Of a DNA stretch of 36,964 bases, positions 1-36,964 are shown one piece after another (positions within the stretch are counted from its first letter, which is position 1; each line of letters begins with the position of its first letter). The notes beneath the pieces were generated by a model. It saw nothing but the letters and a program-made list of their open reading frames with translations, did no database searches and was not told where the DNA came from. The stretch is from IMG/VR virus record IMGVR_UViG_3300036944_000932; one strand, given 5' to 3'. A program made the position numbers and the translations under genes. The DNA comes from a virus.

Positions 1-127
1 CGTCGGAAGTCATGGAAATGGATTTCGACGAGCTGAACTGGTGGCTTGAACGCACCGAGGAATGGGTTGAATGGCAGACAAAGGCTACTCCCTAAACGTC
101 ATCATCAAGGCGGTTGACCGGGTGACG
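1..127. repeat. Terminal overlap copy 1: identical to 36838-36964 (circular-closure duplicate)
   Basis: Both ends read base by base. The string cgtcggaagtcatggaaatgg...ggttgaccgggtgacg is present at both termini. The repeat cuts through the tape-measure start codon region and the chaperone frameshift extension, so it is not a biological boundary. Confidence 0.9.
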
Positions 128-1756: not shown

Positions 1757-1768
1757 CCGGAGCTCCCC

Positions 1769-3019
1769 ATGGCTTGGCGAGACAACTACCGCGCCGCGAC
1801 CTTTCGCGGCGTGGGCTTTTTTGTGGCTACGGCAGACAGCAGTCACGGCCGGCGCCAAGCGGTTCACGAAACAGCACAGCGTGATATCCCCTACACCGAA
1901 GACCTCGGCCGCAAGTCGCGGGAATTCGGGATTACCGGTTACCTGCTGGGCAAGGAATACGACGTAGCCCGGGAAGAACTGATCAAAGCATGCGAACAGG
2001 CTGGACCAGGTGTGCTGGTTCACCCGTACCGTGGCGAACTGACGGTTGTTTGCCGGGGCCTGACCGTCAGCGAGTCTTCAGAAGAGGGGGGTAAATGCAC
2101 CCTCTCCCTGACATTCCTCGAGGCGGGAGAGGCGTCCTACCCGTCGGCGAAGGTCGATAGCGTCAACGCCATCAGTGAAAAGGCGGGGGAGGTCACCGAG
2201 GCAGGCAAAGATAATTTCGTTTCAGGCTTCCTGACCAAAGGGTATCCATCGTTCGTGGCCGAGTCCGCAACATCGCAAATAAAAGGCCTGAGCGACTTCC
2301 TGAGCTCGCCTGAGTTCATCGTTTCCAGCGATATACAGGCGGTCTCTGACTATTACGACAAGGTCAAAAGCATCGGTTCGGATGCGTTCGACCTGATCCA
2401 GAAGCCGTTCGAGTTCGCCGACCAGGTCGTCGATGCGATCAGCAGCATCCGCTCCGCGTTTGGTGGCAGTGCTTTCGGAATGTTGATGGGTTTGTATAAC
2501 CAGTACTTTTCGAGCGATGACAGTGGTTCCAACAGCAAGACGCCGAGTCGTCAGCAGGTGGTGAAGAACACCAATGCCGTCGCTGGGTTGGTGCGTCAGA
2601 CTGCAATTTCTCAAGCGGCGGTGGCGGCGGTTGTCACTCAAACGACCGAGGACGTATCGAACGGCGGCACAAAAACCACGTCGGCGCCGACGAAATACGA
2701 CAGCTATGAATCAGCGATCGCTGTCCGGACGGAGCTTGCCGACCGCCTGGACGAGGAAAGCGAGACGACCAATAGCGATCTGGTCTATGTCGCGGTCACT
2801 GATCTCAGAACCGCCGTAGTCCAGGCTGTACCGGATCCCGAGCAGGACCTGCCACGTCTGGCGACCTTCTCGCCGAGGCAGACGCTTCCGTCACTTGTGG
2901 TCGCCTACCAGCTTTACGGAGATGCCAGCCGCGCCGAGGACATCGTGACGCGTAACGATCCGCGCCGCCCAGGGTTCCTGATTGGTGGCCAGAAGCTTGA
3001 GGTTCTTGCAAATGGATGA
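1769..3019 (+). CDS. DNA circulation protein (Mu gp43-like tail/baseplate protein)
   Basis: The N-terminus MAWRDNYRAATFRGVGFFV...GRRQAVHE...PYTEDLGRK is the typical DNA-circulation N-terminal domain. Its position after the tape measure matches Mu. Confidence 0.8.
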   Translation: MAWRDNYRAATFRGVGFFVATADSSHGRRQAVHETAQRDIPYTEDLGRKSREFGITGYLLGKEYDVAREELIKACEQAGPGVLVHPYRGELTVVCRGLTVSESSEEGGKCTLSLTFLEAGEASYPSAKVDSVNAISEKAGEVTEAGKDNFVSGFLTKGYPSFVAESATSQIKGLSDFLSSPEFIVSSDIQAVSDYYDKVKSIGSDAFDLIQKPFEFADQVVDAISSIRSAFGGSAFGMLMGLYNQYFSSDDSGSNSKTPSRQQVVKNTNAVAGLVRQTAISQAAVAAVVTQTTEDVSNGGTKTTSAPTKYDSYESAIAVRTELADRLDEESETTNSDLVYVAVTDLRTAVVQAVPDPEQDLPRLATFSPRQTLPSLVVAYQLYGDASRAEDIVTRNDPRRPGFLIGGQKLEVLANG

Positions 3020-4130
3020 CCTCGAGTTGCTGGTAAACGGTACGAACTATTTTGGCTGGACTTCGCTCGGTGTGACCCGTGCCGTAGATGCTTCCTCAGG
3101 TGCTTTCACTGTGACGCTGACAGAGCGCTGGGAAGGACAGGACGGCATGGCCGCTCAAGATGAGCCGTGGCCAATCCTGCCCGGTGATCGTTGTGAAGTG
3201 CGGCTTGGCGGAATTCCGATGGTGATCGGCTACGTCGACATCTTCAAACCCTCGTTCAGCGCGACCGACCACACCATCAACATCCAAGGGCGCGATCGAA
3301 CGGCCGATTTGATCGATTGCAGCGCGGTTCATAGCCCTGATGAATGGAAGAACATCGACCTTCTGCGCTTCGCCCAGATTCTGGCAAAACCGTTCGGGGT
3401 TGGGGTTTCTGCTGAAGCGCCGGTGGGCGAGGCCTTCTCGGTATGCAAGCTGCAGCAGGGTGAAACGGCTTTCGAAGCGATTGAGCGTTACGCGCGGCAG
3501 AGACGGCTGTTGCTGATGCCGGACGGTGCCGGCGGCCTGTTGATCACGCGGGCTGGCAATAAGCGCGCATCGGTTGGCCTGGTCCAGGGCGAAAACATCC
3601 TGAGTGCGTCGGGCAGCATCGACCATAGCCAGCGATTCAGTAATTACTTGGTAAAAGGCCAGGCCGCATACAACCCGTACAGCGAAGGCGAGACGGAGGC
3701 GCATATCGAGGGCGGTGCCAGTGACAGCGGCATCAGGCGATACCGGCCCTTGTTGGTCGTTGCCGAATCAGGCAGTTCAAACAGCAGCGCCCAAGAGCGT
3801 GCAACCTGGGAGGCCAACAGCCGGCTGGGTAAATCGGCCAGCGCATCTATCACAGTCCAAGGCTGGCGCCAAAGTCCGGGCGGCCCGTTGTGGGAGCCAG
3901 GGATGCTGGTGCAGGTCAAGGCGCCGTGGCTTCGCATGGATGGGCAAATGATCATCCGGCAGGCCACCTATGAGCGCGGCGACGGTGGCACCACCACGAA
4001 ACTCGACATCGTAAGCCCGCAAGCCTTTTCGCCCGAACCACCGGACTCAAAGAAAGGGAAGAAGGGCAAGAAGGGTGGGCGAAACATTTGGTCGGAAGCC
4101 ATCGGGGAAGAGGACAAAAAGGATGGGTAA
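3012..4130 (+). CDS. Baseplate hub protein (Mu gp44/P, late-control-D-like)
   Basis: The in-frame ATG at 3012 overlaps the upstream stop (3017-3019). Size and position match Mu gp44. The longer N-terminus in the ORF track (2982) lies inside the previous gene. Confidence 0.7.
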   Translation: MDDLELLVNGTNYFGWTSLGVTRAVDASSGAFTVTLTERWEGQDGMAAQDEPWPILPGDRCEVRLGGIPMVIGYVDIFKPSFSATDHTINIQGRDRTADLIDCSAVHSPDEWKNIDLLRFAQILAKPFGVGVSAEAPVGEAFSVCKLQQGETAFEAIERYARQRRLLLMPDGAGGLLITRAGNKRASVGLVQGENILSASGSIDHSQRFSNYLVKGQAAYNPYSEGETEAHIEGGASDSGIRRYRPLLVVAESGSSNSSAQERATWEANSRLGKSASASITVQGWRQSPGGPLWEPGMLVQVKAPWLRMDGQMIIRQATYERGDGGTTTKLDIVSPQAFSPEPPDSKKGKKGKKGGRNIWSEAIGEEDKKDG

Positions 4131-4641
4131 CCCAGTTCGCGATCTCGGCAACCGCGTGATGATGATGTTCGGCCGCGGAGTCCTTCGTGGCGTCAACGAC
4201 TCAAATGGCCGTCAGCAGTTGCAGGTCGAGCTGCTGAAGGGCGAGCTGCGAGACAGCGTCGAACACATGCAGAACTACGGCTTCACTAGTCATCCCCAAG
4301 GCGGTGACGTTGCGGTGGCCTTCATTGGTGGAAACCGGGAGCAGGGCATTGTGCTGGTGGTCGACGACCGCCGCTACCGGATCCCGTTGCAAGCTGGAGA
4401 AGTTGCCATTTATGACGACCAGGGCAACAAAATCGAATTGCTGCGCGACATGGTGAAGGTCACGGCTGTCCAGCATGTCGAGGTGCTGGCGCCAACGATA
4501 AAGCTGATTGGCGATCTTGAACTGGTCGGCAACATGAAAATCCTGGGGAATATCGATTCCACGGGAACGATCAAGAACAACGGCAAGTTCGTCGACAGCA
4601 CACATACCCATAGCAACAGCGGCGCAGGAGTACCGAACTGA
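4123..4641 (+). CDS. Baseplate assembly protein V / central spike (Mu gp45-like)
   Basis: ATG 4123 overlaps the upstream stop (ATGGGTAA). The motif ...LLKGELRDSVEHMQNYGFTSHP...VAFIGGNREQGIV is typical of phage_base_V proteins. Confidence 0.8.
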   Translation: MGNPVRDLGNRVMMMFGRGVLRGVNDSNGRQQLQVELLKGELRDSVEHMQNYGFTSHPQGGDVAVAFIGGNREQGIVLVVDDRRYRIPLQAGEVAIYDDQGNKIELLRDMVKVTAVQHVEVLAPTIKLIGDLELVGNMKILGNIDSTGTIKNNGKFVDSTHTHSNSGAGVPN

Positions 4642-5108
4642 TGGCCGATGCCGCAATGGTAATGACCGAGATCGGCGGCGACCTGGTGCTGTTCGGATTC
4701 GACTTGGAGCGTGATGACGGGCTGGAGACGGCGGTGATCATCAGCCTGTTCACCGACCGTCGCGCCAGCGCCGAGCAGATTCCACCTGAGTATGCGCAGG
4801 ACGACCTGCGCGGGTACTGGGGCGATATCACCAATGCATCGGCGACAGACCAGACAGGTTCTCTGCTGTGGCTGCTGGCCCGAGAGAAGCAACTGCCTCA
4901 GACCCTGAGTCGCGCCGAACAGTACTGCCGCGAGGCGCTGGCCTGGATGATCGAAGACTTGGTGGCCACGAAGATCGCGGTCTCCGCGTCGTATTACTCC
5001 CAGGGCGTGATGTTGCTGGAAATCGACATCTACCGGCCTACCGGCCCAACTGTCCGTTATCGATACAACTACGAATGGTCGGCTCAGGCCGGCAAGAGGG
5101 CTGCCTGA
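4641..5108 (+). CDS. Baseplate protein, GP46 / gpW / gp25-like
   Basis: The 155-aa ORF starts on the previous stop. The motif DLERDDGLETAVIISLFTDRRA...GYWGD is characteristic of the Mu gp46 family. Confidence 0.75.
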   Translation: MADAAMVMTEIGGDLVLFGFDLERDDGLETAVIISLFTDRRASAEQIPPEYAQDDLRGYWGDITNASATDQTGSLLWLLAREKQLPQTLSRAEQYCREALAWMIEDLVATKIAVSASYYSQGVMLLEIDIYRPTGPTVRYRYNYEWSAQAGKRAA

Positions 5109-6166
5109 TGCCATTTGCTCGACCCACGTTACCGGAACTCATCGACCGGGTTACCACCGACATCAGCGGGCGCGTGACTGGCGTTCAAAGTGCGGTGCTT
5201 CGCCGATCTCTACTCGGGATCCTCGCCCGTTCCGAGGCCGGTGCGGTGCACATGCTGTACGGCTTCCTCGAATGGGCAGCCAAGCAGGCAATCATCGATA
5301 CCGCGGAGAAGGAATACCTCGAGCGATGGGCCGCGATCTGGAAAGTGTTCCGTAAGGCCGCCGACTTTTCCACCGGAGACGCGCTGCTCGTGGGCGCTGT
5401 TGGCTCGCCTGTTCCTGCAGGAACGATTGTTCAGCGACAGGATGGCGTGCAATACCGCGTCATGGCTGATGGGGAATTTGCCAGCACCACGCTACAGGTC
5501 ACGGTGGTGGCTCTGGAGGCTGGCGCCGATGGTGACTGCCCGGCGGGTACGCCACTATTTCTGTTTTCCCCAGTGCCCGGCGTTCAGTCAACCGGCTCGG
5601 CGGCTACGGATATCGACGGCGGGCTTGATGTTGAAACGGATCCTCAGCTGCTCAACAGGTTGTTGAAGCGGATCCGCCAACCGCCTCACGGTGGCGCCGC
5701 ATCCGACTACGAGCTCTGGGCGTTAGAAGTTGCCGGTGTCACTAGGGTATGGGTGTATCCGCTACAGATGGGGCTTGGAACGGTGACGATCCTATTTGTT
5801 TGTGATGGTGAGTCCGACATTGTTCCGGACGCTGCCAAGGTCGCCGAGGTTCAGGACTACATCAACGAGCGCTGCCCGGTCACCGCCGAGGTGTTCGTGG
5901 CGGCCCCTGTGGCTGACCCGCTTAATTTGGCCGTGAGGCTGTCGCCGAACACAGCTGCTGTACAGGCTGCTGTCCGGGCTGAGGTTGCCGATCTGATTGT
6001 TCGCGACTCCAAACCGGGCAGCCCGATCCTAATTAGCCGGCTGCGCGAGGCCGTTTCCATTGCTGCAGGTGAGTCGAATAACGAGATCACGTCACCAGCA
6101 GCGGACATACCGCACGCAGCCGGGCACATGGCGGTGCCCGGCACCATAACTTTCTCCAGCTTTTAA
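5108..6166 (+). CDS. Baseplate J-like protein (Mu gp47-like)
   Basis: ATG 5108 overlaps the upstream TGA (TGATG). The N-terminus MPFARPTLPELIDRV and the 352-aa size fit baseplate J. The track start at 4868 lies inside the upstream gene. Confidence 0.75.
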   Translation: MPFARPTLPELIDRVTTDISGRVTGVQSAVLRRSLLGILARSEAGAVHMLYGFLEWAAKQAIIDTAEKEYLERWAAIWKVFRKAADFSTGDALLVGAVGSPVPAGTIVQRQDGVQYRVMADGEFASTTLQVTVVALEAGADGDCPAGTPLFLFSPVPGVQSTGSAATDIDGGLDVETDPQLLNRLLKRIRQPPHGGAASDYELWALEVAGVTRVWVYPLQMGLGTVTILFVCDGESDIVPDAAKVAEVQDYINERCPVTAEVFVAAPVADPLNLAVRLSPNTAAVQAAVRAEVADLIVRDSKPGSPILISRLREAVSIAAGESNNEITSPAADIPHAAGHMAVPGTITFSSF

Positions 6167-6175
6167 GGAGGCGTA

Positions 6176-6766
6176 ATGCCGACAGCTGCCGACTACTTGG
6201 AGCAGCTGAAAACGCTGCTGCCGCCTGGCCAAGCGTTCCCGCGAGAAGCTGGGACCACTCTGCATGACCTGCTCGATGGAATGTCTATTGAACTGGCCCG
6301 GGTAGACGGGCGTGGTGAAGCTCTGCCCGGTGAGGCCAACCCAGCCGACACGAACGAACTTCTTGTCGACTGGGAGCGAGTGGCAGGTCTGCCTGATAAG
6401 TGCGCCGGCGTCCTCGAAGAAACACTGCAGGGGCGCCGCAACGCGCTGCTGACAAAGCTATCCAGCACCGGCGGTCAATCCGCTGCGTACTTCATTGAGT
6501 TGGCCGCTTCGCTCGGATACACGGTGACGATCGAGCAGTTCAGACCGTTCAGGGTGGGTATGTCGCGCGCAGGTGACTCTCTTACAAATGGTGCCTGGGT
6601 TTTCACCTGGCTCATACGTGCGCCCGAAGTAACAGTAACTAGCTTCCGAGTAGGCCGGTCGGCCGTAGGGGAAAGGTTGCGCACCTGGGGCAACGACACC
6701 CTCGAATGCAAAATAAATCAATTGAAGCCAGCGCACACGATAGCGCTCTTCGCCTACGGAGATTGA
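6176..6766 (+). CDS. Baseplate/tail protein, Mu gp48-like (DUF2313)
   Basis: A GGAGG RBS precedes the start. The motif YLEQLKTLLPPGQAF...LVDWERVAGLP is typical of DUF2313/YmfQ-type proteins. Confidence 0.7.
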   Translation: MPTAADYLEQLKTLLPPGQAFPREAGTTLHDLLDGMSIELARVDGRGEALPGEANPADTNELLVDWERVAGLPDKCAGVLEETLQGRRNALLTKLSSTGGQSAAYFIELAASLGYTVTIEQFRPFRVGMSRAGDSLTNGAWVFTWLIRAPEVTVTSFRVGRSAVGERLRTWGNDTLECKINQLKPAHTIALFAYGD

Positions 6767-6769
6767 CGC

Positions 6770-8194
6770 ATGCACAGAATTGACGGGCCTGGAGCCACTG
6801 TGGACAACAGGTTCACCGATGGCGATCCGGTTGGTGGTTTACAAGCCACGATGGTCACCGACGACTGGGCAAATGATGTTCAAGAAGAACTGATGAGCAT
6901 TTTGACGGCCGGTGGCGTTGCGCCAGTTAAAGGCACTCAGGATCAGGTACTGAAAGCACTCACAGGTTTGGTCCGGGCGCAGAGCCTCACTGCAGTCACA
7001 GCATCTGGTACTGCGCCGGCGTTCACGCTCACACCATCGCCCGCTATCACCGCTTACGCCGCGAATCAGCGCTTCCGAGTGAAGTTCAGCGCGGCGGCTC
7101 CGACAAATGGAACTCTTAACGTCTCCAGTCAGGGCCCGAAGAACCTCAAACAATACGATTCGGCCGGCATCAAGGTAGTAGCGCCTATCGCTGCAAACCA
7201 GTTGGCCGATGTTGAATACGACGGCACGGACTGGGTGGTGCTTAATCCGTTGGCAGTTCAGCAAATCGGTACTCAGGGTTCATTCAAAAATCTTGAAGCA
7301 TCCGCCTCCGGAGCGAGCTCGGTTGTAACGATCAGTGCTGAAGAAGCAATTGTGAAGAATGCCGCTGGCCAAGCTTTGCTGCTGAGCAATTTGTTCCTAT
7401 CAGTCAACCTGGCCGCCAGCGGACTCAACGGACTGGATACAGGCACTGTTGCCGCATCGAGTTGTTATTCGATTTGGGCAATCTCCAACGGCACGACGAA
7501 GGGCGCTATCGCCGCTCTTTGCCCTGTGCTGACAGGGAACACTACAGCTGGTTCTGGCGTGGTTACAGCGCTGTCGACGACAGCATCAATGCGTACTGGC
7601 ATGCCATTTTCCGGCGGCAGCCTCCCCCCGGGAGCAGTAGTTTTAAGTGTCGACTCGCCGACACAGATCACAGCTTCGCTTCCCGCTGGCGCTACTGCCA
7701 CTGGGGCTTCGCTACGGTTTGTTTATGACCCAGTAATGCCCGCCGGTTACACCTTCAAGGCGATGGCAAGCGCCATCCCAACGGACGGAACAGCGAACAA
7801 ATTTCCATGGGGGTTCAATCAAACCGGACGAAATGCCCAACTCTTGATTGGGGCTGGAAAGAACCTCACGTTGCTACCTCAAATGGCCGTTGGAGCCCAA
7901 GGCACGATCGGAACCACGCTGGTGCCAGTGGCAGTCGCTGCGTTTGTTCCGCCGACGGCAACCCGCATTCGAGGGATTGTTTTTAACGGCGGCGGTATTA
8001 CGTCTACGCAAGTTGCACCAAACAGCATTGCGACCATCCCGGGCAGCACCGCTATCAATGCTTCCGTAGGTTCTAATGGCGGGGCGAGCTTTTCTGTTGG
8101 ATTCGACTTCCTGCTAGAAAGTGCATTTATCTATTACGCCGGGAGTGCGGCCGGATGCGAAATCCGCTGCCTCGGCTGGGAGCTCAACTTATGA
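6770..8194 (+). CDS. Tail fibre protein
   Basis: Conserved fibre N-terminus MHRIDGPGATVDNRFTDGDPVGG..TMVTDDWANDVQEELMSIL, followed by an Ala/Gly/Thr-rich variable C-terminal part. Confidence 0.8.
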   Translation: MHRIDGPGATVDNRFTDGDPVGGLQATMVTDDWANDVQEELMSILTAGGVAPVKGTQDQVLKALTGLVRAQSLTAVTASGTAPAFTLTPSPAITAYAANQRFRVKFSAAAPTNGTLNVSSQGPKNLKQYDSAGIKVVAPIAANQLADVEYDGTDWVVLNPLAVQQIGTQGSFKNLEASASGASSVVTISAEEAIVKNAAGQALLLSNLFLSVNLAASGLNGLDTGTVAASSCYSIWAISNGTTKGAIAALCPVLTGNTTAGSGVVTALSTTASMRTGMPFSGGSLPPGAVVLSVDSPTQITASLPAGATATGASLRFVYDPVMPAGYTFKAMASAIPTDGTANKFPWGFNQTGRNAQLLIGAGKNLTLLPQMAVGAQGTIGTTLVPVAVAAFVPPTATRIRGIVFNGGGITSTQVAPNSIATIPGSTAINASVGSNGGASFSVGFDFLLESAFIYYAGSAAGCEIRCLGWELNL

Positions 8195-8580
8195 GTGGAT
8201 ACGCGGTTCGAAAAGACAATCAGGGCGCCCGGGCTGTAGATGGGCCTGGGGATGTGTGGCCTGAAGAATATTTCAGCGAAACCATTATTGTTGTTCTCCA
8301 ATCCGAAGAGCAGTTGATCAACAAGTTTCGCGCAATTATTCAGCGCCACATGGATGAAGCGGCGGTGCGGGTTGGGTATGACGACATAAAAACAGCGGTC
8401 ACGTACGCTGACGAGCCTTCTGTACCGAAGTTCCAAGCCGAGGGCCAAGCCCTGCGCGCCTGGCGCAGTTTGGTGTGGGCTTATGGCTACGAGCAGATTG
8501 CCGCAGTTCAATCGGGAGAGCGAACTTTGCCGACGCCGGAGGAGCTGATCGCCGAGCTCCCACCGTTGGTGATGCCGTAA
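8191..8580 (+). CDS. Putative tail fibre assembly chaperone
   Basis: ATG 8191 overlaps the fibre stop (ATGA). The 129-aa size and position directly after the fibre gene support the call. Assigned mainly by position. Confidence 0.5.
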   Translation: MSGYAVRKDNQGARAVDGPGDVWPEEYFSETIIVVLQSEEQLINKFRAIIQRHMDEAAVRVGYDDIKTAVTYADEPSVPKFQAEGQALRAWRSLVWAYGYEQIAAVQSGERTLPTPEELIAELPPLVMP

Positions 8581-8870
8581 TGGCTGACGTAGCGGGTTAT
8601 GTCGCCGCCTACGGTCGGCGCAAGTATTGGTTTTCTCTGATGCTTGCTGCTGACCAGTTCATCAACGCGCTGCTGTGGGGTTACGTCGACGAGACGCTGA
8701 GCAGTCGAGCCTACCGGTGCCGGAGCAAAAAGCGCCGGTGGGCGATCGCGGAAAAGCTCATCAACGCGCTGTTCTGGCGTGACCGGCAGGGCGATTTCCG
8801 GCATTGCCAGATCGCCTACTACGCCGAGGTCGCCCGCGAGCACCTTCCGCAATACACGGAATTGGAGTAG
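8580..8870 (+). CDS. Hypothetical 96-aa protein between the fibre chaperone and the endolysin
   Basis: ATG 8580 overlaps the upstream TAA. It has one weakly hydrophobic stretch (YWFSLMLAADQFINALLWGY) interrupted by D/Q, then a basic, Cys/His-containing tail. It is not a convincing holin. Confidence 0.55.
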   Translation: MADVAGYVAAYGRRKYWFSLMLAADQFINALLWGYVDETLSSRAYRCRSKKRRWAIAEKLINALFWRDRQGDFRHCQIAYYAEVAREHLPQYTELE

Positions 8871-8873
8871 CCC

Positions 8874-9407
8874 ATGCCCATCACTCAGCAGCAGTTGCTG
8901 CAGATACTCCCGAACGCCCGCGGCCAAGCGGGCGTTTTTGCATCTGTGCTCAACGTGGCCATGCTTCGTTATCAGATCATCGGGCCAAAACGTATGGCGG
9001 CGTTTATTGCGCAAATTGGCCACGAGTCGGGGCAGTTGCAATACGTCCGCGAGATCTGGGGTCCGACCGCTGCGCAGTTGAGATACGAGGGCAGGGCAGA
9101 CCTGGGTAACACCGTGGCGGGAGACGGTTCCCGGTACCTCGGTCGAGGCCTGATCCAGATCACCGGCCGGGCCAACTATGCGGCGTGCGGCGAAGCACTG
9201 GGGATTGACCTGATCAACCATCCGGAATTGTTGGAGCAGCCGCAGTACGCGTGTCTGTCGGCGGCCTGGTTCTGGGCTACGAAGGGTTTGAACACCCTGG
9301 CAGACGTTGGTGAATTCAACGCCATCACCCGCCGAATCAACGGCGGCCTCAATGGCCTCGCGGATCGACTGAAGCTTTGGGCGAAGGCGCGGGAGGTGCT
9401 GGCGTGA
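8874..9407 (+). CDS. Endolysin, glycoside hydrolase family 19 (chitinase class I-like, R-pyocin Lys-like)
   Basis: Motifs AAFIAQIGHESG, YEGRADLGNT, GRGLIQITGRANY and INGGLNGL. No signal or SAR sequence. Confidence 0.9.
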   Translation: MPITQQQLLQILPNARGQAGVFASVLNVAMLRYQIIGPKRMAAFIAQIGHESGQLQYVREIWGPTAAQLRYEGRADLGNTVAGDGSRYLGRGLIQITGRANYAACGEALGIDLINHPELLEQPQYACLSAAWFWATKGLNTLADVGEFNAITRRINGGLNGLADRLKLWAKAREVLA

Positions 9408-10229: not shown

Positions 10230-10278
10230 TGGTGCCGGCACCAGGAGTCGAACCCGGGACCTACTGATTACAAGTCAG
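10230..10278 (-). other. attP core: 3' 49 nt of a tRNA-Thr(UGU) gene (anticodon arm to CCA), not a complete tRNA
   Basis: The reverse complement reads ctgaCTTGTAAtcagtaggtcccgggttcgactcctggtgccggcacca. This gives anticodon loop CUUGUAA, a T-arm, the acceptor 3' strand and CCA. It closely parallels E. coli thrU from memory. No D-arm or 5' acceptor strand follows. Confidence 0.8.
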
Positions 10279-10462
10279 CCCCCTTAGTCAGTATCGGCAT
10301 AGCGTGCAGAGCTTCTTTTGTACGTTAGTTATATGGGTTTCGCCCTTGTTTTGCTGGTAACGCCGCCATTGATGTACGCGGAAAAGACTGGGGTTCTGTC
10401 CAGCATTCTCTACCTCCTGACTGTGGATAAAGCTGTGGGCAGCTTTTGGTTTAATCAGTTGC

Positions 10463-11611: not shown

Positions 11612-11814
11612 ACAATGTCCGCGTCATACTTTTCTTGATCGATTGGCTTGAGGCCGCCCGCCTGGTTGACCAGGTCGACGGTGGTCCAAGGCCCCTTTCT
11701 CCCGAGGAATATTCGTATTCCTTCCCCGCGCAGCGCCTTCTCCACGTCAGCACGCCGCGTATAGCCGGTGATCCGCTGCAATTCCTCAAACTCTATGACT
11801 CTAGCCGCGCTCAT
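11608..11814 (-). CDS. xis: Putative excisionase / recombination directionality factor (DUF4224-like)
   Basis: 68 aa. Its stop overlaps the int start. The pattern FEELQRITGYTRRADVEKALRGEGIRIF..RKGPWTT fits DUF4224 proteins found next to integrases. Confidence 0.65.
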   Translation of the reverse strand: MSAARVIEFEELQRITGYTRRADVEKALRGEGIRIFLGRKGPWTTVDLVNQAGGLKPIDQEKYDADIV

Positions 11815-12077
11815 GTCTGCCCGCCTTCGTGTCGCGACACGTTTTCGTTAACCGTGGATTGTGTCGCGACCGTCACGTACAGCCCGCCGCGCTCGATGCA
11901 AAATGCATCCTCCATGCGCACCACCACTTTCAGCCTGGGCTGACACATACCCGCCTCGTACTTGCAGATCATGCTCGCAGTGACACCGAGGTTGTCAGCA
12001 AGGTCTCGCTGGGTGGTGCCGGCCCGAGCCCGAAGTAGTGCCAGCTTCTCACCGTCGAAAATTGGCTTGCTGTTCAT
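11811..12077 (-). CDS. XRE-family HTH protein
   Basis: LALLRARAGTTQRDLADNLGVTASMICKYEAG is a canonical HTH_3 motif. The gene overlaps the xis start. Confidence 0.75.
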   Translation of the reverse strand: MNSKPIFDGEKLALLRARAGTTQRDLADNLGVTASMICKYEAGMCQPRLKVVVRMEDAFCIERGGLYVTVATQSTVNENVSRHEGGQT

Positions 12078-12843: not shown

Positions 12844-12997
12844 GGCCCTGTTGAAAATGGTCAGCCAGCACCCGGCGCGCGTCGATACCGCACGAAGCCG
12901 ACATAGCGTAGATCTGGCCGAACGTGGTTTCCCGGCGCTGCAGGGCGTTGAACAGCTCGATCAGGCGCTGGCCCTTGGTTCCGTTGCGGCGGTTCAT
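12830..12997 (-). CDS. Unlisted 55-aa ORF (below the track cutoff), possible small winged-helix/DNA-binding protein
   Basis: Hand translation gives MNRRNGTKGQRLIELFNALQRRETTFGQIYAMSASCGIDARRVLADHFQQGHGRA*. Its ATG overlaps the upstream stop (ATGA at 12994-12997) and its end overlaps the HNH start. Third codon positions are GC-rich. Confidence 0.45.
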   Translation of the reverse strand: MNRRNGTKGQRLIELFNALQRRETTFGQIYAMSASCGIDARRVLADHFQQGHGRA

Positions 12998-13263
12998 AGC
13001 TGTAACCCGTTTCCCTGTGGGAGCGGGGTGGCCTGCTGCAGCCCATTTTCAAGCACTGAGCTGGCCGGAGAGGCCCGTCCCGCTTCGTGCGCCGGGGCGG
13101 CGGTCTGCGGGAGCGAACTGTCCGGCAAGCAACTGATGCCGGTGTTGTTCACGATCCAGCAGGTGACGCCCCGCACGCTGTCGTGCTGGACGCTGATCAA
13201 CTGGTCGCCGGCGGCAGCCTGACCGGCGATCAGCAGCAGGATGGCGATGATCATTGCTCGCAT
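12994..13263 (-). CDS. Small secreted protein (signal peptide, 2 Cys)
   Basis: A GAGGAG RBS lies 8 nt upstream of ATG 13263. [19 protein letters not shown] is a signal peptide. Confidence 0.6.
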   Translation of the reverse strand: MRAMIIAILLLIAGQAAAGDQLISVQHDSVRGVTCWIVNNTGISCLPDSSLPQTAAPAHEAGRASPASSVLENGLQQATPLPQGNGLQL

Positions 13264-13664
13264 GGTTGCAGCTCCTCGGAAAACTCGTCGACGATGGGCC
13301 AGTCGAGCGCAGCAGCGTCAATCAGCCTGTCCAGGTCATGGCCGCCAACCGGGTCTCCCATGCCTATGCGCACTATCGGTACGTTGGCCGATCCAGTGCC
13401 CAGAGCCCCGTCACGCAACCAGCGGTACCGGCTCGCCTCGGCGGCCATCTGAATGTGGCCATCGATGCAGAACTCTTCCGAGTCCAAACTCGGTGTCACA
13501 ACGTCACGATCACTCGCGCCGGCGATCACAGCCAGGCCCCGTCCAATGGAAACGTGGGCGCCGAGCTGGACGAAGGGCGCGATCTGCTCCAGCGTCTGCC
13601 CGTCCGCAGGGCGCAGTACTATGCTGATCCGGTCGATCACCGGACGGAGAGTTTTGCTATGCAT
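13251..13664 (-). CDS. Hypothetical 137-aa protein translationally coupled to the CsrA homologue (contains an RYRWLRD motif)
   Basis: An AAGGAG RBS lies 7 nt upstream of ATG 13664, which overlaps the CsrA stop (ATGCATAG). The track N-terminal extension to 13817 lies inside the csrA-like gene. Confidence 0.65.
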
Positions 13665-13956
13665 TTGCAGGCTCCTTGGTGCCGCCATTTGCTTTGGATG
13701 CTTGCTCCTGAGCCAGAAGCTCGCGCCATTCAGCTTCGGTGCGATTCGCGAATAGAGGTTCTTCCGCTGCAGCGTTGACTGCAGGTTTCGGGATCTCACC
13801 AGCCTTGCGGATGGCAATCTCTTCGCGATCTACCGGCACGCCTTTTGGCGCATCGATGCCAAGGCGTACCTGCTGGCCTTTAACGCCCAGGACCGTGACT
13901 GTGATGTCGTTGCCAATGCGGATTACTTCGCCTGGCTTTCGAGTGAGGATCAACAT
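13657..13956 (-). CDS. csrA: CsrA/RsmA-family RNA-binding protein with about 40-aa C-terminal extension
   Basis: [47 protein letters not shown] aligns with E. coli Csr[48 protein letters not shown]. An AAGGAG RBS lies 7 nt upstream of ATG 13956. The track start at 13962 is a TTG. Confidence 0.88.
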
Positions 13957-14009
13957 GGTCAAACTCCTTGTTGATGATGGGATGGTGAATCACCACCCCA
14001 TCAGGGTGA

Positions 14010-14837
14010 TTACTTACCGATGCCGATGAATGGAGTTGCGGTTCCGCTGGTCATGTAGACCGGCAGCTTCCCGTCCCACTTCTCGATAGCGTTGAGCTCG
14101 ACGACTCCAGGGTTCTTGCGCAGCGCTTCACCGCGGATGTTCAGCGACTCAGCTTCGCCCTGGGCCTTGAGGATGGCTGCGTCTTTGTCACCCTGGGCTG
14201 CGGCACGAACCTTGGCGGCTTCAGCTTCGGTCTGTCGCAGCTCGTTCTCCCGCTGTTGGGCCTTCTGAGTGGCGGTGATGCTGTTGTTCAACGCCTCCAC
14301 AACCTGGGGCGGCAGCACGATCTCGCCATTCAAGTAGAGCGACTCGACCACGATGCCTTTGCTTTCGAAGTGCTGCTGAACCTGCTGCTCGATGGCCTTC
14401 AGGAACGCCTCTTTGCCTGGCCCGTACACTTCGGACGCCTTGACCTTCGATCCGGCATTGTTGAAGGCATTGCGCACCACCTGTGGCACGTTCACCTGGA
14501 TGATTTCGTCCATCGACTTGCGATAAGTCTGGAACAGCAGCGGGGCAGCACCTGGCTTGGCGCGTAGCGTGATGCCGATCGGCGCGCTGATCGTCATGCC
14601 GTCACGATCCTGGAACTTGACCTGCTGCAGATTGAAGTTCTGGGCGAAAGTCGGGAACAGGAATAACTCCTCGTTCGGCGTCAGCCACTTGTAGCCGACC
14701 GTGGCCTCGGTGGGAGCCACCCCTTTGTCGCTACCCATAAGGTTCACGATTACGCCCGTGTAGCCGGCGGGCACCTTCGAGCACCCCGCCGTGATGGCAA
14801 GAAGGCACAGCAATGCAACAGCGGCAATCCGCTTCAT
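14010..14837 (-). CDS. SPFH/Band-7 (prohibitin/HflC-like) lipoprotein
   Basis: Lipobox LAITAGC. An SPFH-like core (PAGYTGVIVN..., ...VVESLYLNGEIVLPPQVVEA) is followed by an Ala/Glu-rich coiled coil. A GAGGA RBS precedes the ATG, which overlaps the upstream stop. Confidence 0.8.
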   Translation of the reverse strand: MKRIAAVALLCLLAITAGCSKVPAGYTGVIVNLMGSDKGVAPTEATVGYKWLTPNEELFLFPTFAQNFNLQQVKFQDRDGMTISAPIGITLRAKPGAAPLLFQTYRKSMDEIIQVNVPQVVRNAFNNAGSKVKASEVYGPGKEAFLKAIEQQVQQHFESKGIVVESLYLNGEIVLPPQVVEALNNSITATQKAQQRENELRQTEAEAAKVRAAAQGDKDAAILKAQGEAESLNIRGEALRKNPGVVELNAIEKWDGKLPVYMTSGTATPFIGIGK

Positions 14838-15082
14838 AGATTTTCCTCTTTGGTATTAGCCGCTAACTCACGGCGATTTGCGAATAGGTGGGCGGCGAGG
14901 CAGATCGACGCAATCAGCCAAAGCGCGATCAAACCGAAGCCGAGGAAGACCATCACGTCGGATTCAGCACTGATCAGCGCAGGGCAGATGCCGCGCAGTA
15001 GAACGAATGAGAGAGCCAGGTAGAACGTTGCTGAAAGCAGCCTCAACAAAAGCAGGCCTGGCTTGATATTTACTTGTGGCAT
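14834..15082 (-). CDS. Small 2-TM membrane protein coupled to the SPFH gene
   Basis: A GGAGA RBS lies 5 nt upstream of ATG 15082. Two hydrophobic spans are present (LLLLRLLSATFYLALSFVLL, VMVFLGFGLIALWLIASICLAA). Its stop overlaps the SPFH ATG (ATGA). Confidence 0.65.
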   Translation of the reverse strand: MPQVNIKPGLLLLRLLSATFYLALSFVLLRGICPALISAESDVMVFLGFGLIALWLIASICLAAHLFANRRELAANTKEENL

Positions 15083-15145
15083 CACTTTCTCCAGGCCGAA
15101 CGAATCCCGGCCGCGTTATTGGCTTTCGTGAAAAATCAGGTTGGG

Positions 15146-15523
15146 TTAAGCGGTTTGAATGGCTTCGATCCGGCGCACTGCAGCGCGGGTTTCGATACGA
15201 CGCTCACCCTGGCGGCAGAGGCGGTTCATGTGATCGTCTGTGATCGCTGCGTGACCGGTGAGGACCGCGCACATCAGCACCACCAAGTGCCGTGCAATTC
15301 CACGACAGAACAGTTCAGTAGGGATCGCCGATCTGCTGGTTACACCGAGCTTGTAAAAGATGCGCTCAATTGATTTTTTGACGGTGCCGGGAGCGCAGCC
15401 AATAACCCGGGCGATTTCCTTGTTAGCAAGACCGGCGCACACGGCAAGGGCAGCGCGCAATTCTTGCTCTGCGAGAATGCCGGTTGTTCCCTGCAGCTTG
15501 CCGAAATTGATAACCGTGCTCAT
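15146..15523 (-). CDS. LuxR/GerE-type HTH protein with a hydrophobic C-terminal half
   Basis: LAEQELRAALAVCAGLANKEIARVIGCAPGTVKKSIERIFYKLGV is a GerE-type HTH, followed by HLVVLMCAVLTGHAAI. It is the first gene of the leftward operon. Confidence 0.75.
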   Translation of the reverse strand: MSTVINFGKLQGTTGILAEQELRAALAVCAGLANKEIARVIGCAPGTVKKSIERIFYKLGVTSRSAIPTELFCRGIARHLVVLMCAVLTGHAAITDDHMNRLCRQGERRIETRAAVRRIEAIQTA

Positions 15524-15551: not shown

Positions 15552-15601
15552 GGATAAAAATATAAGCAGATTTATAGGAGTAGGCAAGCAGTATTTTTAT
15601 G
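15552..15601 (-). promoter_or_regulatory. PL-like leftward early promoter flanked by two operator-like ATAAAAATA motifs
   Basis: On the minus strand: -35 TTGCCT (15587-15582), 17 nt, -10 TATATT (15564-15559). Motif copies lie at 15554-15566 (+) and 15589-15601 (-), overlapping the -10 and abutting the -35. Confidence 0.5.
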
Positions 15602-15641
15602 ATTTTTACCAGTCCACTGTTTTTCCTTAATCAATAGGCGC

Positions 15642-15664
15642 AAAAAAGCCCGGCGAACCGGGCT
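15642..15664 (-). terminator. Rho-independent terminator after cI
   Basis: The minus strand reads agcccgg-ttcg-ccgggct followed by tttttt, 20 nt beyond the cI stop. Confidence 0.75.
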
Positions 15665-15683: not shown

Positions 15684-16463
15684 CTAGTAAAAAGAAGCCC
15701 CCCAGAAAACACGCCCCACGATTCGGATTTTGGCCTCGTCCATCTCGTGCGCTGAGTATGTCTCGTCTGGATGCTCCGCAATGTTGTAGCTTCTCATGCG
15801 GATGCCTCCGCCTGGCAGTCGATAGAGCGCTTTAACTCTGATTTGGCCGCCATGATCTATCACGTACATGCGTCCATCGACTACCTGGGTCTCGCGTAGA
15901 TGCGCAACGACGGTGCCGCCGTCCTGCAAAACTGGCGCCATTGAATTACCCGAGATGGCTGCCGCGACAACATGCTCAGGGAGTACGCCTTGCTTCAATA
16001 AAATTTCAGAGTTTAGGTCAAGGTGAACCTTCACGCTGATCTCGACAACCGTTTTCGATGAGTCGCGAGGGTCGTCGAGTTCAATCAAATAGGGTATTTC
16101 GTCGGTAAGCAGAGAGTTTGAAGGTGCATACCTGCTCACGTTCCTCAGCTCTTCTATCCGCTCTCGCAGGGCTAAGTTAAGGGCTGCATCATCGTCATGT
16201 TCGCCACGCAGGATCTCTTCAAGCTCGCTGCTGAAGTAGCTCATAGCATCTTCTGGAGAGTTCATCTCGCCTTCCCCTGAAGCTAGCCAGGCGCTATTCA
16301 CCCCGCATGCCCGGGCTATCTGAACAAGGTAGGAGGATCGTAGCGTCTTACCTGATTCCAGTTGACTAATGGCTGTCTGCGCGATGCCTACGGATTCCGC
16401 AAGCTGAGACTGAGTAAGCCTTGCTTTCTTCCGGGCTAGCTTGATTCGTTCGGATAGATTCAT
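15684..16463 (-). CDS. cI: CI-type repressor (XRE HTH plus S24 LexA-like autopeptidase)
   Basis: The N-terminus RIKLARKKARLTQSQLAESVGIAQTAISQLESG is an HTH. The C-terminus has GNSMAP (Ser) and IRVKAL (Lys). It is divergent from cro. Confidence 0.9.
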   Translation of the reverse strand: MNLSERIKLARKKARLTQSQLAESVGIAQTAISQLESGKTLRSSYLVQIARACGVNSAWLASGEGEMNSPEDAMSYFSSELEEILRGEHDDDAALNLALRERIEELRNVSRYAPSNSLLTDEIPYLIELDDPRDSSKTVVEISVKVHLDLNSEILLKQGVLPEHVVAAAISGNSMAPVLQDGGTVVAHLRETQVVDGRMYVIDHGGQIRVKALYRLPGGGIRMRSYNIAEHPDETYSAHEMDEAKIRIVGRVFWGASFY

Positions 16464-16549
16464 CCGCTGATCCTATAAAAATACTTATGGGGTTGCAAAG
16501 AAGTTTGCTTCTGTGCATTCTATAAAAAGACTTATCAGAGGCCGGCGTC
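16464..16549. promoter_or_regulatory. Divergent cI/cro control region with two 16-bp operator-like direct repeats
   Basis: CTATAAAAATACTTAT (16473-16488) and CTATAAAAAGACTTAT (16520-16535) each carry an ATAA-N6-TTAT dyad. A TTGCAA -35-like hexamer lies at 16493-16498. Confidence 0.6.
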
Positions 16550-36807: not shown

Positions 36808-36932
36808 CTGTTGTCGTCAAGGTCATGAGCGTACAGCCGTCGGAAGTCATGGAAATGGATTTCGACGAGCTGAACTGGTGGCTTGAACGCACCGAGGAAT
36901 GGGTTGAATGGCAGACAAAGGCTACTCCCTAA
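36505..36932 (+). CDS. Tail assembly chaperone -1 frameshift fusion product (E+E' / G-T analogue)
   Basis: The -1 frame extension after 36774 reads ...[53 protein letters not shown]. The SEVMEMDFDELNWW segment resembles the P2 GpE' domain. The extension overlaps the tape-measure start, as in other phages. Confidence 0.65.
36768..36774 (+). promoter_or_regulatory. -1 programmed ribosomal frameshift slippery heptamer T_TTT_TTG
   Basis: The zero frame reads GAT TTT TTG. The -1 frame is open from 36678 and continues to TAA at 36930-36932. Confidence 0.7.
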
Positions 36933-36964
36933 ACGTCATCATCAAGGCGGTTGACCGGGTGACG
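36838..36964. repeat. Terminal overlap copy 2: identical to 1-127
   Basis: See the first feature. Confidence 0.9.

What the first reader, a model, noticed from the sequence alone, without database searches (positions are those of the whole stretch)
13251..13970. Phage-encoded CsrA/RsmA homologue with a long C-terminal tail, translationally coupled to an unknown 137-aa protein
Seen: the first roughly 50 residues of the 99-aa protein are about two-thirds identical by eye to E. coli CsrA. The [21 protein letters not shown] and REEI segments that form the RNA-binding surfaces are all retained. A further roughly 40 residues of non-CsrA tail follow ([37 protein letters not shown]...).

Its own RBS is AAGGAG, which contains a GGA. 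Its last codons overlap the ATG of a 137-aa ORF (ATGCATAG) that has its own AAGGAG.

Established: CsrA/Rsm proteins are global post-transcriptional regulators. Extra copies on plasmids and ICEs are known to reprogramme hosts.

Inference: this phage copy, sitting in the CI-controlled early-left operon, could rewire the host Gac/Rsm regulon on induction or infection. The coupled 137-aa protein (RYRWLRD motif) may be a partner or antagonist, functionally analogous to FliW. I see no sequence similarity to FliW.
Basis: partly seen in the sequence, partly recalled or inferred. Interest (0 to 1): 0.7.

Follow-up and report, generated by a model that had tools for sequence, protein, structure and literature searches.

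The report
Phage CsrA regulator with linked partner
A complete temperate Pseudomonas phage carries a well-conserved copy of the bacterial RNA-binding regulator CsrA/Rsm; phage-borne CsrA genes are already known, but this one has an unnamed conserved tail and sits just upstream of an acidic domain of unknown function that many related phages fuse directly to CsrA.

Summary
A 99-aa CsrA/Rsm protein is encoded at 13657-13956 (-). Its core is 66% identical to E. coli CsrA and 72% to RsmE. Its stop overlaps (ATGCATAG) the start of a 137-aa ORF at 13251-13664 (-).

The window is a complete circular 36.8-kb temperate phage. The pair lies between cI and int, behind a promoter-like site that carries operator-like repeats.

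Phage and prophage Rsm paralogues with C-terminal extensions are already published (Sobrero & Valverde 2020; Bci, Ambroa 2020). The general idea is therefore not new.

New here:
- The tail carries a nearly invariant motif, EPLY[AG][14 protein letters not shown]. It defines a prophage-restricted subfamily that the 2020 survey left unassigned.
- The 137-aa protein has two modules. Its acidic C-module (RYRWLRD) is fused in frame to CsrA cores at eight or more different junctions; this is the published "RsmL". It is also fused to Arc-type DNA-binding domains.
- Tail-type csrA is followed by this cassette in 20 of 20 loci.

A functional link between CsrA and the C-module is therefore well supported. 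Its direction (antagonist, oligomeriser or adaptor) is unknown. A dedicated FliW analogue is unlikely, because the module also serves Arc-type domains. No fold or family match was found.

The parts
13657..13956 (-). csrA/rsm gene, 99 aa. The CsrA core is residues 1-53, a variable Pro/Ala linker is residues 54-65, and the conserved tail is residues 66-84 plus a variable end.
   Evidence: Translation. Pfam CsrA 1.5e-22. NCBIfam equivalog above its cut-off. phrog_31572 over the whole length, 1.9e-33. RsmE structure 2jpp, E=1.4e-16.
13705..13761 (-). Tail motif [20 protein letters not shown] (residues 66-84), a probable amphipathic helix.
   Evidence: In an alignment of 31 subfamily members, P67 L68 N71 R72 T73 E74 R78 L80 L81 E84 are invariant and W77 is at least 90% conserved. 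A tail HMM hits at 13693-13770.
13964..13969 (-). Shine-Dalgarno AAGGAG of csrA, 7 nt before the ATG.
   Evidence: Read directly. The same A-rich AAGGAG context occurs in nearly all related loci.
13975..14003 (-). GC-rich stem-loop (13-bp stem, UUC loop) between the SPFH gene stop and the csrA Shine-Dalgarno sequence. No U-tract follows it.
   Evidence: Fold z-score -3.0. A hairpin at the same position occurs in 54 of 54 distinct csrA upstream regions, with 28 different sequences.
13251..13664 (-). 137-aa partner ORF. The N-module is roughly residues 10-55 (invariant GRGLAVI). The acidic C-module is roughly residues 63-125 (RYRWLRD ... LD..ID.A).
   Evidence: Translation. phrog_32153 2.8e-19 and phrog_30873. 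Alignment A2. Module HMMs place Nmod at 13500-13637 and Cmod at 13290-13478. Net charge -10.
13657..13677 (-). Coupling junction: AAGGAG at 13677-13672, partner ATG at 13664, csrA stop TAG at 13659-13657 (ATGCATAG).
   Evidence: Read directly. 19 of 23 distinct two-gene loci have a csrA stop that overlaps or abuts the start of the next ORF.
12994..13263 (-). 89-aa ORF with an N-terminal signal-peptide-like segment. Its start overlaps the partner stop (ATGCGAGCAATGA).
   Evidence: phrog_9917 4.9e-22. It directly follows the C-module gene in 29 of 31 related loci that hold a homologue, whatever precedes the C-module.
15559..15587 (-). PL-like promoter candidate (TTGCCT-17-TATATT), overlapped by operator-like repeats. 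It heads the leftward operon that contains csrA.
   Evidence: Promoter scan. Inverted-repeat matches I2, I4, I10 and I17 to the two CTATAAAAA.ACTTAT copies in the cI-cro intergenic region. Sequence.
15640..15662 (-). Intrinsic-terminator-like hairpin (AGCCCGG-TTCG-CCGGGCT followed by TTTTTT) just after the cI stop codon.
   Evidence: Read directly. It was not listed by the scan.
15684..16463 (-). CI-type repressor (HTH plus S24 peptidase).
   Evidence: Pfam Peptidase_S24 8.6e-17 and HTH_3 1.1e-12.

Best explanation
This is the Rsm/CsrA gene of a complete temperate Pseudomonas phage. It belongs to an unnamed, prophage-restricted subfamily defined by a conserved C-terminal helix motif.

Proposed mechanism:
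1. The gene is transcribed with the leftward early operon, from a CI-controlled PL-like promoter, on infection or induction. (Inferred.)
2. The protein folds as a normal CsrA dimer and binds GGA motifs. All RNA-binding residues are conserved (shown). Binding itself is inferred.
3. It adds Rsm activity that competes for host and/or phage mRNAs and for the host RsmX/Y/Z sponge RNAs. (Inferred by analogy with Bci and RsmQ.)
4. It works as a two-part regulator with the product of the translationally coupled downstream gene. That gene's acidic RYRWLRD C-module is the constant element of a cassette with the grammar [CsrA, with or without tail]-[Arc-like RHH]-[N-module]-C-module. Neighbouring pieces are joined either by stop/start overlaps or by in-frame fusion.
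5. The C-module most likely modulates the attached or co-expressed nucleic-acid-binding domain, through oligomerisation or charge-based masking. It probably has no separate activity of its own. (Inferred, weakly.)
For: CsrA identity:
- Family scores above curated cut-offs.
- Best solved relative is RsmE. Core identity is 72% to RsmE and 66% to RsmA and to E. coli CsrA.
- L2 L4 R6 V42 R44 E46 I47 are invariant in 31 subfamily members.

Tail:
- The motif is as conserved as the core, after a variable linker.
- At full length it is absent from plasmids and from isolated phage records.
- All named sources but one (a Chitinophagaceae MAG) are Pseudomonas.

Phage context:
- A 127-bp terminal overlap shows a circular genome. 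Tail, baseplate and lysis genes are present.
- cI is followed by a terminator, a promoter-like site and shared operator-like repeats.
- csrA lies between cI and int on the same strand in L001 and L017, and upstream of int on the same strand in L004.

Link to the C-module:
- Of 92 loci selected through the partner family, 23 have CsrA core and C-module in one ORF, and 35 have csrA upstream of the partner gene on the same strand: abutting or overlapping it in 23, and about 210-230 nt upstream in 12, a gap filled by a small Arc-like gene in 11.
- Of 20 loci selected through the tail alone, 19 are followed by an N- and/or C-module gene, and the remaining one by the Arc-like gene.
- There are at least eight different fusion junctions, on different CsrA cores. 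The P. putida fusions are the published RsmL.
- The C-module is also fused to Arc-like RHH domains in 18 loci. In other loci a 75-aa Arc-like gene sits, coupled on both sides, between csrA and the partner gene.

Charges and precedent:
- Core +2.5, tail -3, C-module -11.
- Precedents for host effects are Bci and RsmQ.
Against: - No experiment or structure supports RNA binding, expression timing or any protein-protein contact.
- All loci come from one related group of Pseudomonas phages, so conserved gene order is partly shared ancestry.
- Neither the tail nor the N-module is required for the pairing. Tail-less csrA genes precede N-module genes in 20 loci, and tail-type csrA genes precede Arc-C-module fusions in 3.
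- The C-module model is only moderately confident (pLDDT 71.6) and matches no known fold, so its activity is a guess.
- Distant C-module relatives stand alone or sit beside other domains (DUF551, Lar, Ead/Ea22) without CsrA.
Confidence: 0.5

Rival explanations
1. The phage CsrA mainly controls the phage's own genes, such as the timing of early-left operon products, int/xis or the lysis-lysogeny choice. This would resemble CsrT on Legionella ICEs. Host reprogramming would be a side effect at most.
For: The gene sits in the regulatory early region between cI and int in all loci examined. It is surrounded by other small regulators: a LuxR-type gene, Arc-like genes and an HTH gene. A positionally conserved hairpin and an invariant A-rich AAGGAG precede csrA itself, which is compatible with autoregulation or processing. 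Sobrero & Valverde discuss the CsrT precedent.
Against: No second GGA site or GGA-loop hairpin was seen in the csrA or partner leaders. The core is very close to host RsmE (72%), so cross-talk with host targets and sponge RNAs is hard to avoid. Deleting Bci changed host quorum-sensing, motility and biofilm traits.
Confidence: 0.25
2. The 137-aa protein is a dedicated protein antagonist of the phage CsrA, functionally like FliW or CesT. It would sequester the CsrA until a signal releases it.
For: There is tight translational coupling. The partner is strongly acidic and lies next to a basic RNA-binding core. Synteny is conserved. Sobrero & Valverde proposed that extended Rsm tails could be protein-docking scaffolds.
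Against: No sequence similarity to FliW, CesT or any Pfam, NCBIfam or PDB family. The conserved C-module is repeatedly fused in cis to CsrA, an odd arrangement for a titrating antagonist. It is equally associated with Arc-type DNA-binding domains. Pairing occurs without the tail.
Confidence: 0.12
3. The two genes are functionally independent neighbours in a mosaic accessory region. Adjacency reflects common descent, and the fusions are tolerated in-frame deletions.
For: All loci are from related Pseudomonas temperate phages that share the cI, LuxR-type and int backbone. The C-module occurs alone or with unrelated domains in more distant relatives. Fourteen N+C-module genes have no csrA upstream.
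Against: There are at least eight different fusion junctions on different CsrA cores, one of them widespread across several Pseudomonas species. Genes upstream of csrA vary (SPFH, LuxR-type, Bro-N), yet the downstream cassette stays. 20 of 20 tail-type csrA genes keep the cassette.
Confidence: 0.13

Closest known systems
RsmL subfamily of Pseudomonas Rsm proteins (Sobrero & Valverde 2020, PMC7366521; for example P. putida B479_20160 and PputW619_3966)
   Same: Prophage-associated CsrA paralogues. Their C-terminal extension is the same RYRWLRD domain as the C-module of the window's 137-aa ORF. The helix, beta-hairpin, helix model agrees with the paper's description of two extra helices and two short strands.
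   Different: In RsmL the domain is fused to the CsrA core in a single polypeptide of about 130 aa. Here it is on a separate, coupled ORF behind an extra N-module, and the CsrA has its own tail motif. Core identity to RsmL is only 60%. The paper did not recognise the extension as a separate, mobile domain.
Unassigned ('na') Rsm proteins in the same survey (P. cichorii BH81_RS17730, P. parafulva XB13_RS20055)
   Same: They carry the same tail motif, EPLY[AG][10 protein letters not shown]. Core identity is 78% and 70%. BH81_RS17730 is the same protein as P0034.
   Different: None in kind. The window protein is a new member of this unnamed group. The group's defining motif and its conserved downstream cassette were not described.
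Bci / RsmM of P. aeruginosa phage AUS531phi (Ambroa et al. 2020, PMC7546807)
   Same: A CsrA homologue with a C-terminal extension, encoded by a temperate phage. Its deletion altered quorum-sensing gene expression, motility, biofilm, pyocyanin and infectivity.
   Different: Its 70-aa extension is unrelated in sequence to both the tail and the C-module. Core identity is 62%. It has no coupled partner gene.
RsmQ of plasmid pQBR103 (Thompson et al. 2023, PMC9928087) and CsrT of Legionella ICEs
   Same: Rsm/CsrA copies carried by mobile elements that take over or tune host post-transcriptional control.
   Different: They are borne on a plasmid or an ICE, lack this tail and have no RYRWLRD partner. 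Full-length matches to the window protein are absent from plasmids.
FliW-CsrA (Bacillus, Campylobacter) and CesT-CsrA
   Same: A CsrA whose activity is controlled by a protein encoded nearby. FliW-type CsrA proteins also have C-terminal extensions (from the paper's discussion, and my own knowledge).
   Different: There is no sequence relationship. The module here also serves Arc-type DNA-binding domains and occurs fused in cis, which FliW and CesT do not.

Membership tests
CsrA/Rsm family (Pfam PF02599; NCBIfam NF002469) | Sequence scores above the curated family cut-offs | tested here: met
   Pfam 79.8 bits against 27. NF002469 79.5 bits against 73; TIGR00202 falls just short at 69.6 against 70.1.
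CsrA/Rsm family (Pfam PF02599; NCBIfam NF002469) | RNA-contacting residues conserved (L2, L4, R6, V42, R44, I47; R44 essential) | tested here: met
   All are present in the window protein and invariant in 31 subfamily members. R44 is cited as essential in PMC7366521.
CsrA/Rsm family (Pfam PF02599; NCBIfam NF002469) | Interleaved beta-sandwich homodimer that binds two GGA hairpins | not testable with these tools
   No multimer prediction or binding assay was available. The only evidence is alignment to RsmE 2jpp over residues 1-53.
RsmL subfamily (Sobrero & Valverde 2020) | CsrA core and RYRWLRD extension in a single polypeptide | tested here: not met
   In the window the two are separate ORFs with a stop/start overlap. 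Core identity to RsmL is 60%.
RsmM / Bci | The Bci-type C-terminal extension | tested here: not met
   By eye, the Bci tail sequence shows no resemblance to the window tail or to the C-module.
FliW (PF02623) or CesT (PF05932) for the 137-aa ORF | Sequence membership in the family | tested here: not met
   None of 33 family members hit either model, even at E<=1. The PDB profile search found nothing significant.
RYRWLRD-domain phage proteins (phrog_32153, phrog_4029, phrog_13871; no Pfam entry) | C-terminal module with DA.RYRWLRD ... G..LD..ID.A | tested here: met
   phrog_32153 2.8e-19. Invariant columns are shown. Distant members fall in phrog_4029 and phrog_13871.
Type II toxin-antitoxin pair (RHH antitoxin plus toxin) as a model for the cassette | A small DNA-binding antitoxin coupled to a recognisable toxin fold | tested here: inconclusive
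   Arc-like genes are coupled to the C-module gene. However, the C-module matches no toxin family or fold and is often fused to the RHH domain.

The most novel reading that the evidence does not exclude
The RYRWLRD C-module would be a third, previously unrecognised class of protein partner for CsrA-family regulators, after FliW and CesT. It is an acidic, portable control domain that phages attach, in cis or in trans, to either an RNA-binding (CsrA) or a DNA-binding (Arc-type) dimer to gate or multimerise it. The conserved [10 protein letters not shown] tail helix would be the docking element in the split form.
Probability: 0.25. Interest if true: 0.65.

Novelty: new variant of a known kind. 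Interest (0 to 1): 0.45.

Why it matters
Rsm/CsrA proteins control motility, biofilm, secondary metabolism and some defence systems in Pseudomonas. Copies on mobile elements can take over that control.

The useful result here is a concrete pair of natural forms to compare. The same two parts, a CsrA core and the RYRWLRD domain, exist both split (this phage) and fused (RsmL). They can be tested side by side to ask whether proteobacterial CsrA proteins can be regulated by a protein as well as by sponge RNAs.

The work also gives a defining motif and a genomic signature for an Rsm subfamily that a published survey left unassigned.

Tried and rejected
- **Programmed frameshift or overlapping gene.** The partner frame (+1 relative to csrA) is open for a median of 62 codons upstream of the N-module, against 3 codons for the third frame. 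Synonymous-codon shuffles of each csrA reproduce this (all P>0.09). The effect is compositional, so the idea is rejected.
- **N-module as a degenerate CsrA-like domain.** hhalign of A2 against A1 gave probability 0.2%. Rejected.
- **AlphaFold2 of the whole 137-aa protein.** pLDDT 56.7, unusable.
- **C-module model.** pLDDT 71.6. Foldseek against PDB and BFVD returned nothing below E=0.7.
- **Family searches for the partner.** Pfam, NCBIfam, PADLOC and PDB sequence searches were all negative.
- **Nucleotide and protein searches in isolated phages.** Megablast of the region found no match. tblastn of the partner found no match.
- **Word-indexed search with the tail alone.** No candidates, so that search was wasted.
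- **Rfam.** Only the tRNA was found.
- **RNA folding.** The tail-coding and partner-RBS region shows no excess structure (z=+0.5).
- **Literature searches.** Searches for RsmL follow-up work and for the RYRWLR motif found nothing.
- **Tail and N-module as a cognate docking pair.** Weakened, because each occurs without the other.
Full report
**1. What is at the coordinates**

Both genes are on the minus strand. The csrA ORF runs from the ATG at 13956 to the TAG at 13659-13657. It encodes 99 aa beginning [54 protein letters not shown].

- AAGGAG lies 7 nt upstream of the ATG.
- The TTG two codons further upstream, listed by the ORF finder, sits too close to that Shine-Dalgarno sequence. All homologues start MLILTR.
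- The partner ORF starts at the ATG at 13664, inside the last codons of csrA (ATGCATAG). It has its own AAGGAG 7 nt upstream and ends at 13251, giving 137 aa that include RYRWLRD.
- A third ORF (89 aa, 12994-13263, with a signal-peptide-like N-terminus) overlaps the partner's stop in the same manner.

**2. The CsrA**

- Pfam CsrA matches residues 1-48 at E=1.5e-22.
- NCBI's CsrA equivalog model is passed.
- The best solved relative is RsmE, 2jpp, at E=1.4e-16.
- Over residues 1-50, identity is 66% to E. coli CsrA and to P. putida RsmA, and 72% to RsmE. It is lower to RsmC, RsmI, RsmL and RsmM.
- The database holds this exact protein on a 36,964-bp JGI contig, already named "carbon storage regulator". 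About 65 clusters of full-length relatives exist. All named sources but one are Pseudomonas: P. poae, P. cichorii, P. protegens and P. putida; one cluster (P0057) is named a Chitinophagaceae MAG.
- In an alignment of 31 relatives, L2 L4 R6 V42 R44 E46 I47 are invariant.

The protein is almost certainly an active RNA-binding CsrA.

**3. The tail**

After a variable Pro/Ala-rich linker (residues 54-65) comes EPLY[AG][14 protein letters not shown]. In it, P67 L68 N71 R72 T73 E74 R78 L80 L81 E84 are invariant and W77 is nearly so. This short stretch is as conserved as the RNA-binding core, and it looks like an amphipathic helix with an N-cap.

- It is acidic, with net charge -3.
- A PHROG family (phrog_31572) covers the whole protein including the tail.
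- Full-length matches are absent from the plasmid collection.
- Among isolated phage records, only two distant proteins reach 80% coverage, at 38-42% identity.

**4. What the window is**

- The first and last 127 bases are identical, so the contig is a circular assembly of 36,837 bp.
- Positions 1-9407 encode a tape-measure-like protein, Mu-type baseplate proteins and a GH19 endolysin.
- A tRNA-Thr-like sequence (10230-10298) sits next to the integrase.
- cI (15684-16463) faces a cro-like gene at 16550.
- Directly after the cI stop there is a terminator-like hairpin with a T-run. It is followed by a promoter-like site at 15587-15559.
- The sequence CTATAAAAA.ACTTAT occurs twice between cI and cro. 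Two related copies overlap the promoter-like site.
- From that site to int, all genes are on the minus strand and tightly packed. In order they are: a LuxR/GerE-type 125-aa protein, an 83-aa membrane protein, an SPFH lipoprotein, csrA, the partner, the 89-aa ORF, a 55-aa ORF, an HNH endonuclease, an 80-aa ORF, an 88-aa HTH protein, a 68-aa ORF in the position of an excisionase (not tested) and int.

csrA lies between cI and int on the same strand in L001 and L017, and upstream of int on the same strand in L004.

**5. The partner is modular**

Its 133 relatives are all named as Pseudomonas. Alignment shows three parts:

- An N-module, roughly residues 10-55, with invariant GRGLAVI.
- An optional insert of 60-100 aa in the 180-230-aa relatives.
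- A C-module, roughly residues 63-125: F.IDDHV...DA.RYRWLRD...G..LD..ID.A.

An exhaustive HMMER search of 1.84 billion representatives found only 138 proteins. The distant ones are short proteins made of a coiled-coil-like stretch plus the C-module. They occasionally carry Arc, DUF551, Lar or Ead/Ea22 domains, and they fall in phrog_4029, phrog_13871 and phrog_32153, all of unknown function.

No Pfam, NCBIfam, PADLOC or PDB sequence match exists. AlphaFold2 of the C-module with 91 sequences gave helix, beta-hairpin, helix at pLDDT 71.6. Foldseek found nothing in the PDB or BFVD. The C-module is very acidic, with pI 4.1 and net charge -11.

**6. Link between CsrA and the C-module**

I built HMMs for the CsrA core, the tail, the N-module and the C-module. 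I then scanned 92 loci retrieved through the partner family from GTDB genomes and IMG/VR.

| Arrangement | Loci |
|---|---|
| CsrA core and C-module in one ORF | 23 |
| csrA upstream of an N- and/or C-module gene, same strand | 35 |
| N+C-module gene without csrA | 14 |
| C-module behind another N-terminus | 18 |

- Of the 35 loci with csrA upstream, 23 have the two ORFs abutting or overlapping. In the other 12 csrA lies about 210-230 nt upstream; 11 of those gaps hold the small Arc-like gene described below, and the twelfth (L065) precedes an Arc-C-module fusion.
- 14 of those 35 csrA genes carry the tail motif.
- All but three of the 18 "other N-terminus" loci turned out to be an Arc-type ribbon-helix-helix domain. 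Together with the three tail-selected loci below, that makes 18 Arc-C-module fusions.
- Of 20 IMG/VR loci retrieved through the tail motif alone, 16 are followed by an N-module gene, 3 by an Arc-C-module fusion and 1 by the Arc-like gene only.
- In the loci with a gap of about 210-216 nt between csrA and the partner, the gap holds a 75-aa Arc-like gene coupled on both sides.

The fusions have at least eight different junctions on different CsrA cores:

- the large MLMLSRNIGK...VAEG... clade;
- L076, L013, L079 and L007;
- L075, which keeps the tail;
- L020, which keeps the insert;
- P0069 and P0066, which have a window-like core.

The locus therefore follows the grammar [CsrA, with or without tail]-[Arc]-[N-module]-[insert]-C-module. 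Neighbours are joined either by a stop/start overlap or in frame, and the C-module is the constant. Genes upstream of csrA differ between loci (SPFH here, LuxR-type in L001, Bro-N in L017), while the cassette persists.

**7. Relation to the literature**

Sobrero & Valverde 2020 (PMC7366521) surveyed Rsm proteins in Pseudomonas.

- They noted that RsmM, RsmH and RsmL have structured C-terminal extensions that might dock proteins "by analogy to FliW".
- They found RsmD and RsmL alleles in prophage-like contexts.
- Their Supplementary Table 4 shows that RsmL proteins are CsrA cores followed by ...FSIDEHVKLVADARRYRWLRD..., which is the C-module.
- Proteins with the window's tail motif (P. cichorii BH81_RS17730, P. 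parafulva XB13_RS20055) are listed there as "na", not assigned.

Ambroa et al. 2020 (PMC7546807) deleted bci, a 123-aa CsrA homologue of P. aeruginosa phage AUS531phi. They saw changes in quorum-sensing gene expression, motility, biofilm, pyocyanin and infectivity. The Bci extension is unrelated to the tail or the C-module here. RsmQ on plasmid pQBR103 is the plasmid precedent. I found no paper on RsmL function or on the RYRWLR motif.

**8. Interpretation**

*Shown:*
- a conserved CsrA gene on a complete temperate phage;
- a conserved tail motif;
- translational coupling to a modular acidic protein;
- repeated split and fused occurrence of the CsrA core with the C-module;
- the same behaviour of the C-module with Arc-type domains.

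*Inferred:*
- expression from a CI-repressed promoter;
- binding of GGA RNAs, and competition with host Rsm proteins and sponge RNAs;
- a functional and possibly physical partnership with the C-module.

The C-module serves both an RNA-binding dimer and a DNA-binding dimer, and it is tolerated in cis. I therefore favour a general modulatory role, such as oligomerisation, masking or adaptor function, over a dedicated CsrA antagonist of the FliW type. Neither the tail nor the N-module is obligatory for the pairing, so my early idea that they form a cognate docking pair is weakened. The tail's partner remains unknown.

**9. Side checks that were negative**

- The long open +1 frame across csrA is explained by amino-acid and codon composition.
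- The N-module is unrelated to CsrA.
- The GGA in the RBS carries no information, because every AGGAG contains it.
- No GGA-loop hairpins or second sites were seen in the two leaders.

**10. Verdict**

The CsrA is a new member of a published but unnamed prophage Rsm group. The split/fused CsrA-RYRWLRD cassette and the tail motif are modestly new descriptive findings with a clear experimental route. Function beyond "CsrA-family regulator" is not established.

Noticed in passing
window 13975-14003 (-); same position in L001-L113: A GC-rich stem-loop sits 16-30 nt before the csrA ATG in 54 of 54 distinct upstream regions. 96% have a stem of at least 7 bp, against 10.6% of shuffles. There are 28 different hairpin sequences, which by eye fall into several unrelated stem families. 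No U-tract follows and there is no GGA in the loop. The structure is conserved but the sequence is not. Its function is unknown (processing site, 5' stabiliser or attenuator).
   Followed up: partly
window 1-127 and 36838-36964: The two ends are an exact 127-bp repeat, so the window is a circularly assembled, complete temperate phage genome of 36,837 bp. It is not a prophage with host flanks. Positions 1-9407 are tail, Mu-type baseplate and GH19 endolysin genes.
   Followed up: yes
window 10230-10298 (-): A tRNA-Thr(UGU)-like sequence lies next to the integrase gene on the phage genome itself. It scores barely above the Rfam threshold (30.1 bits against 29). It is presumably the attP copy of a tRNA integration site. 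No second copy occurs in the window.
   Followed up: partly
window 15559-15600 and 16470-16535: The operator-like sequence CTATAAAAA.ACTTAT occurs twice between cI and cro. Two related copies overlap the promoter-like site downstream of cI. A clean terminator hairpin at 15640-15662 follows the cI stop, but the terminator scan did not list it.
   Followed up: partly
L096 6164-6391; L003, L014, L019, L064-L067, L106, L107 and others: An Arc-type ribbon-helix-helix domain behaves like CsrA towards the RYRWLRD module. It occurs either as a 75-aa gene coupled on both sides between csrA and the partner gene, or fused in frame to the C-module (18 loci).
   Followed up: partly
window 12994-13263 (-): An 89-aa ORF with a signal-peptide-like N-terminus (phrog_9917) is translationally coupled to the partner gene. 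In 29 of the 31 related loci that hold a homologue it directly follows the C-module gene, whatever domain precedes the C-module. It may belong to the same unit.
   Followed up: partly
window 14010-15085 (-): An SPFH/Band-7 lipoprotein (275 aa) and an overlapping 83-aa membrane protein lie just upstream of csrA. Only 9-10 of the 113 related loci have them, so they look like an inserted moron. PADLOC found no defence-system match.
   Followed up: partly
window 15146-15523 (-): A 125-aa LuxR/GerE-type HTH protein (phrog_3282, labelled 'sigma factor') is the first gene after the PL-like promoter. Homologues occur in almost all related loci (107 hits). It occupies the position that N has in lambda. 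Its role is unknown.
   Followed up: no
window 11811-12077 (-): An 88-aa HTH protein between the early-left genes and the gene in the xis position gives weak PADLOC hits to the HTH parts of RmrA and capH models. This is probably a generic HTH resemblance.
   Followed up: no
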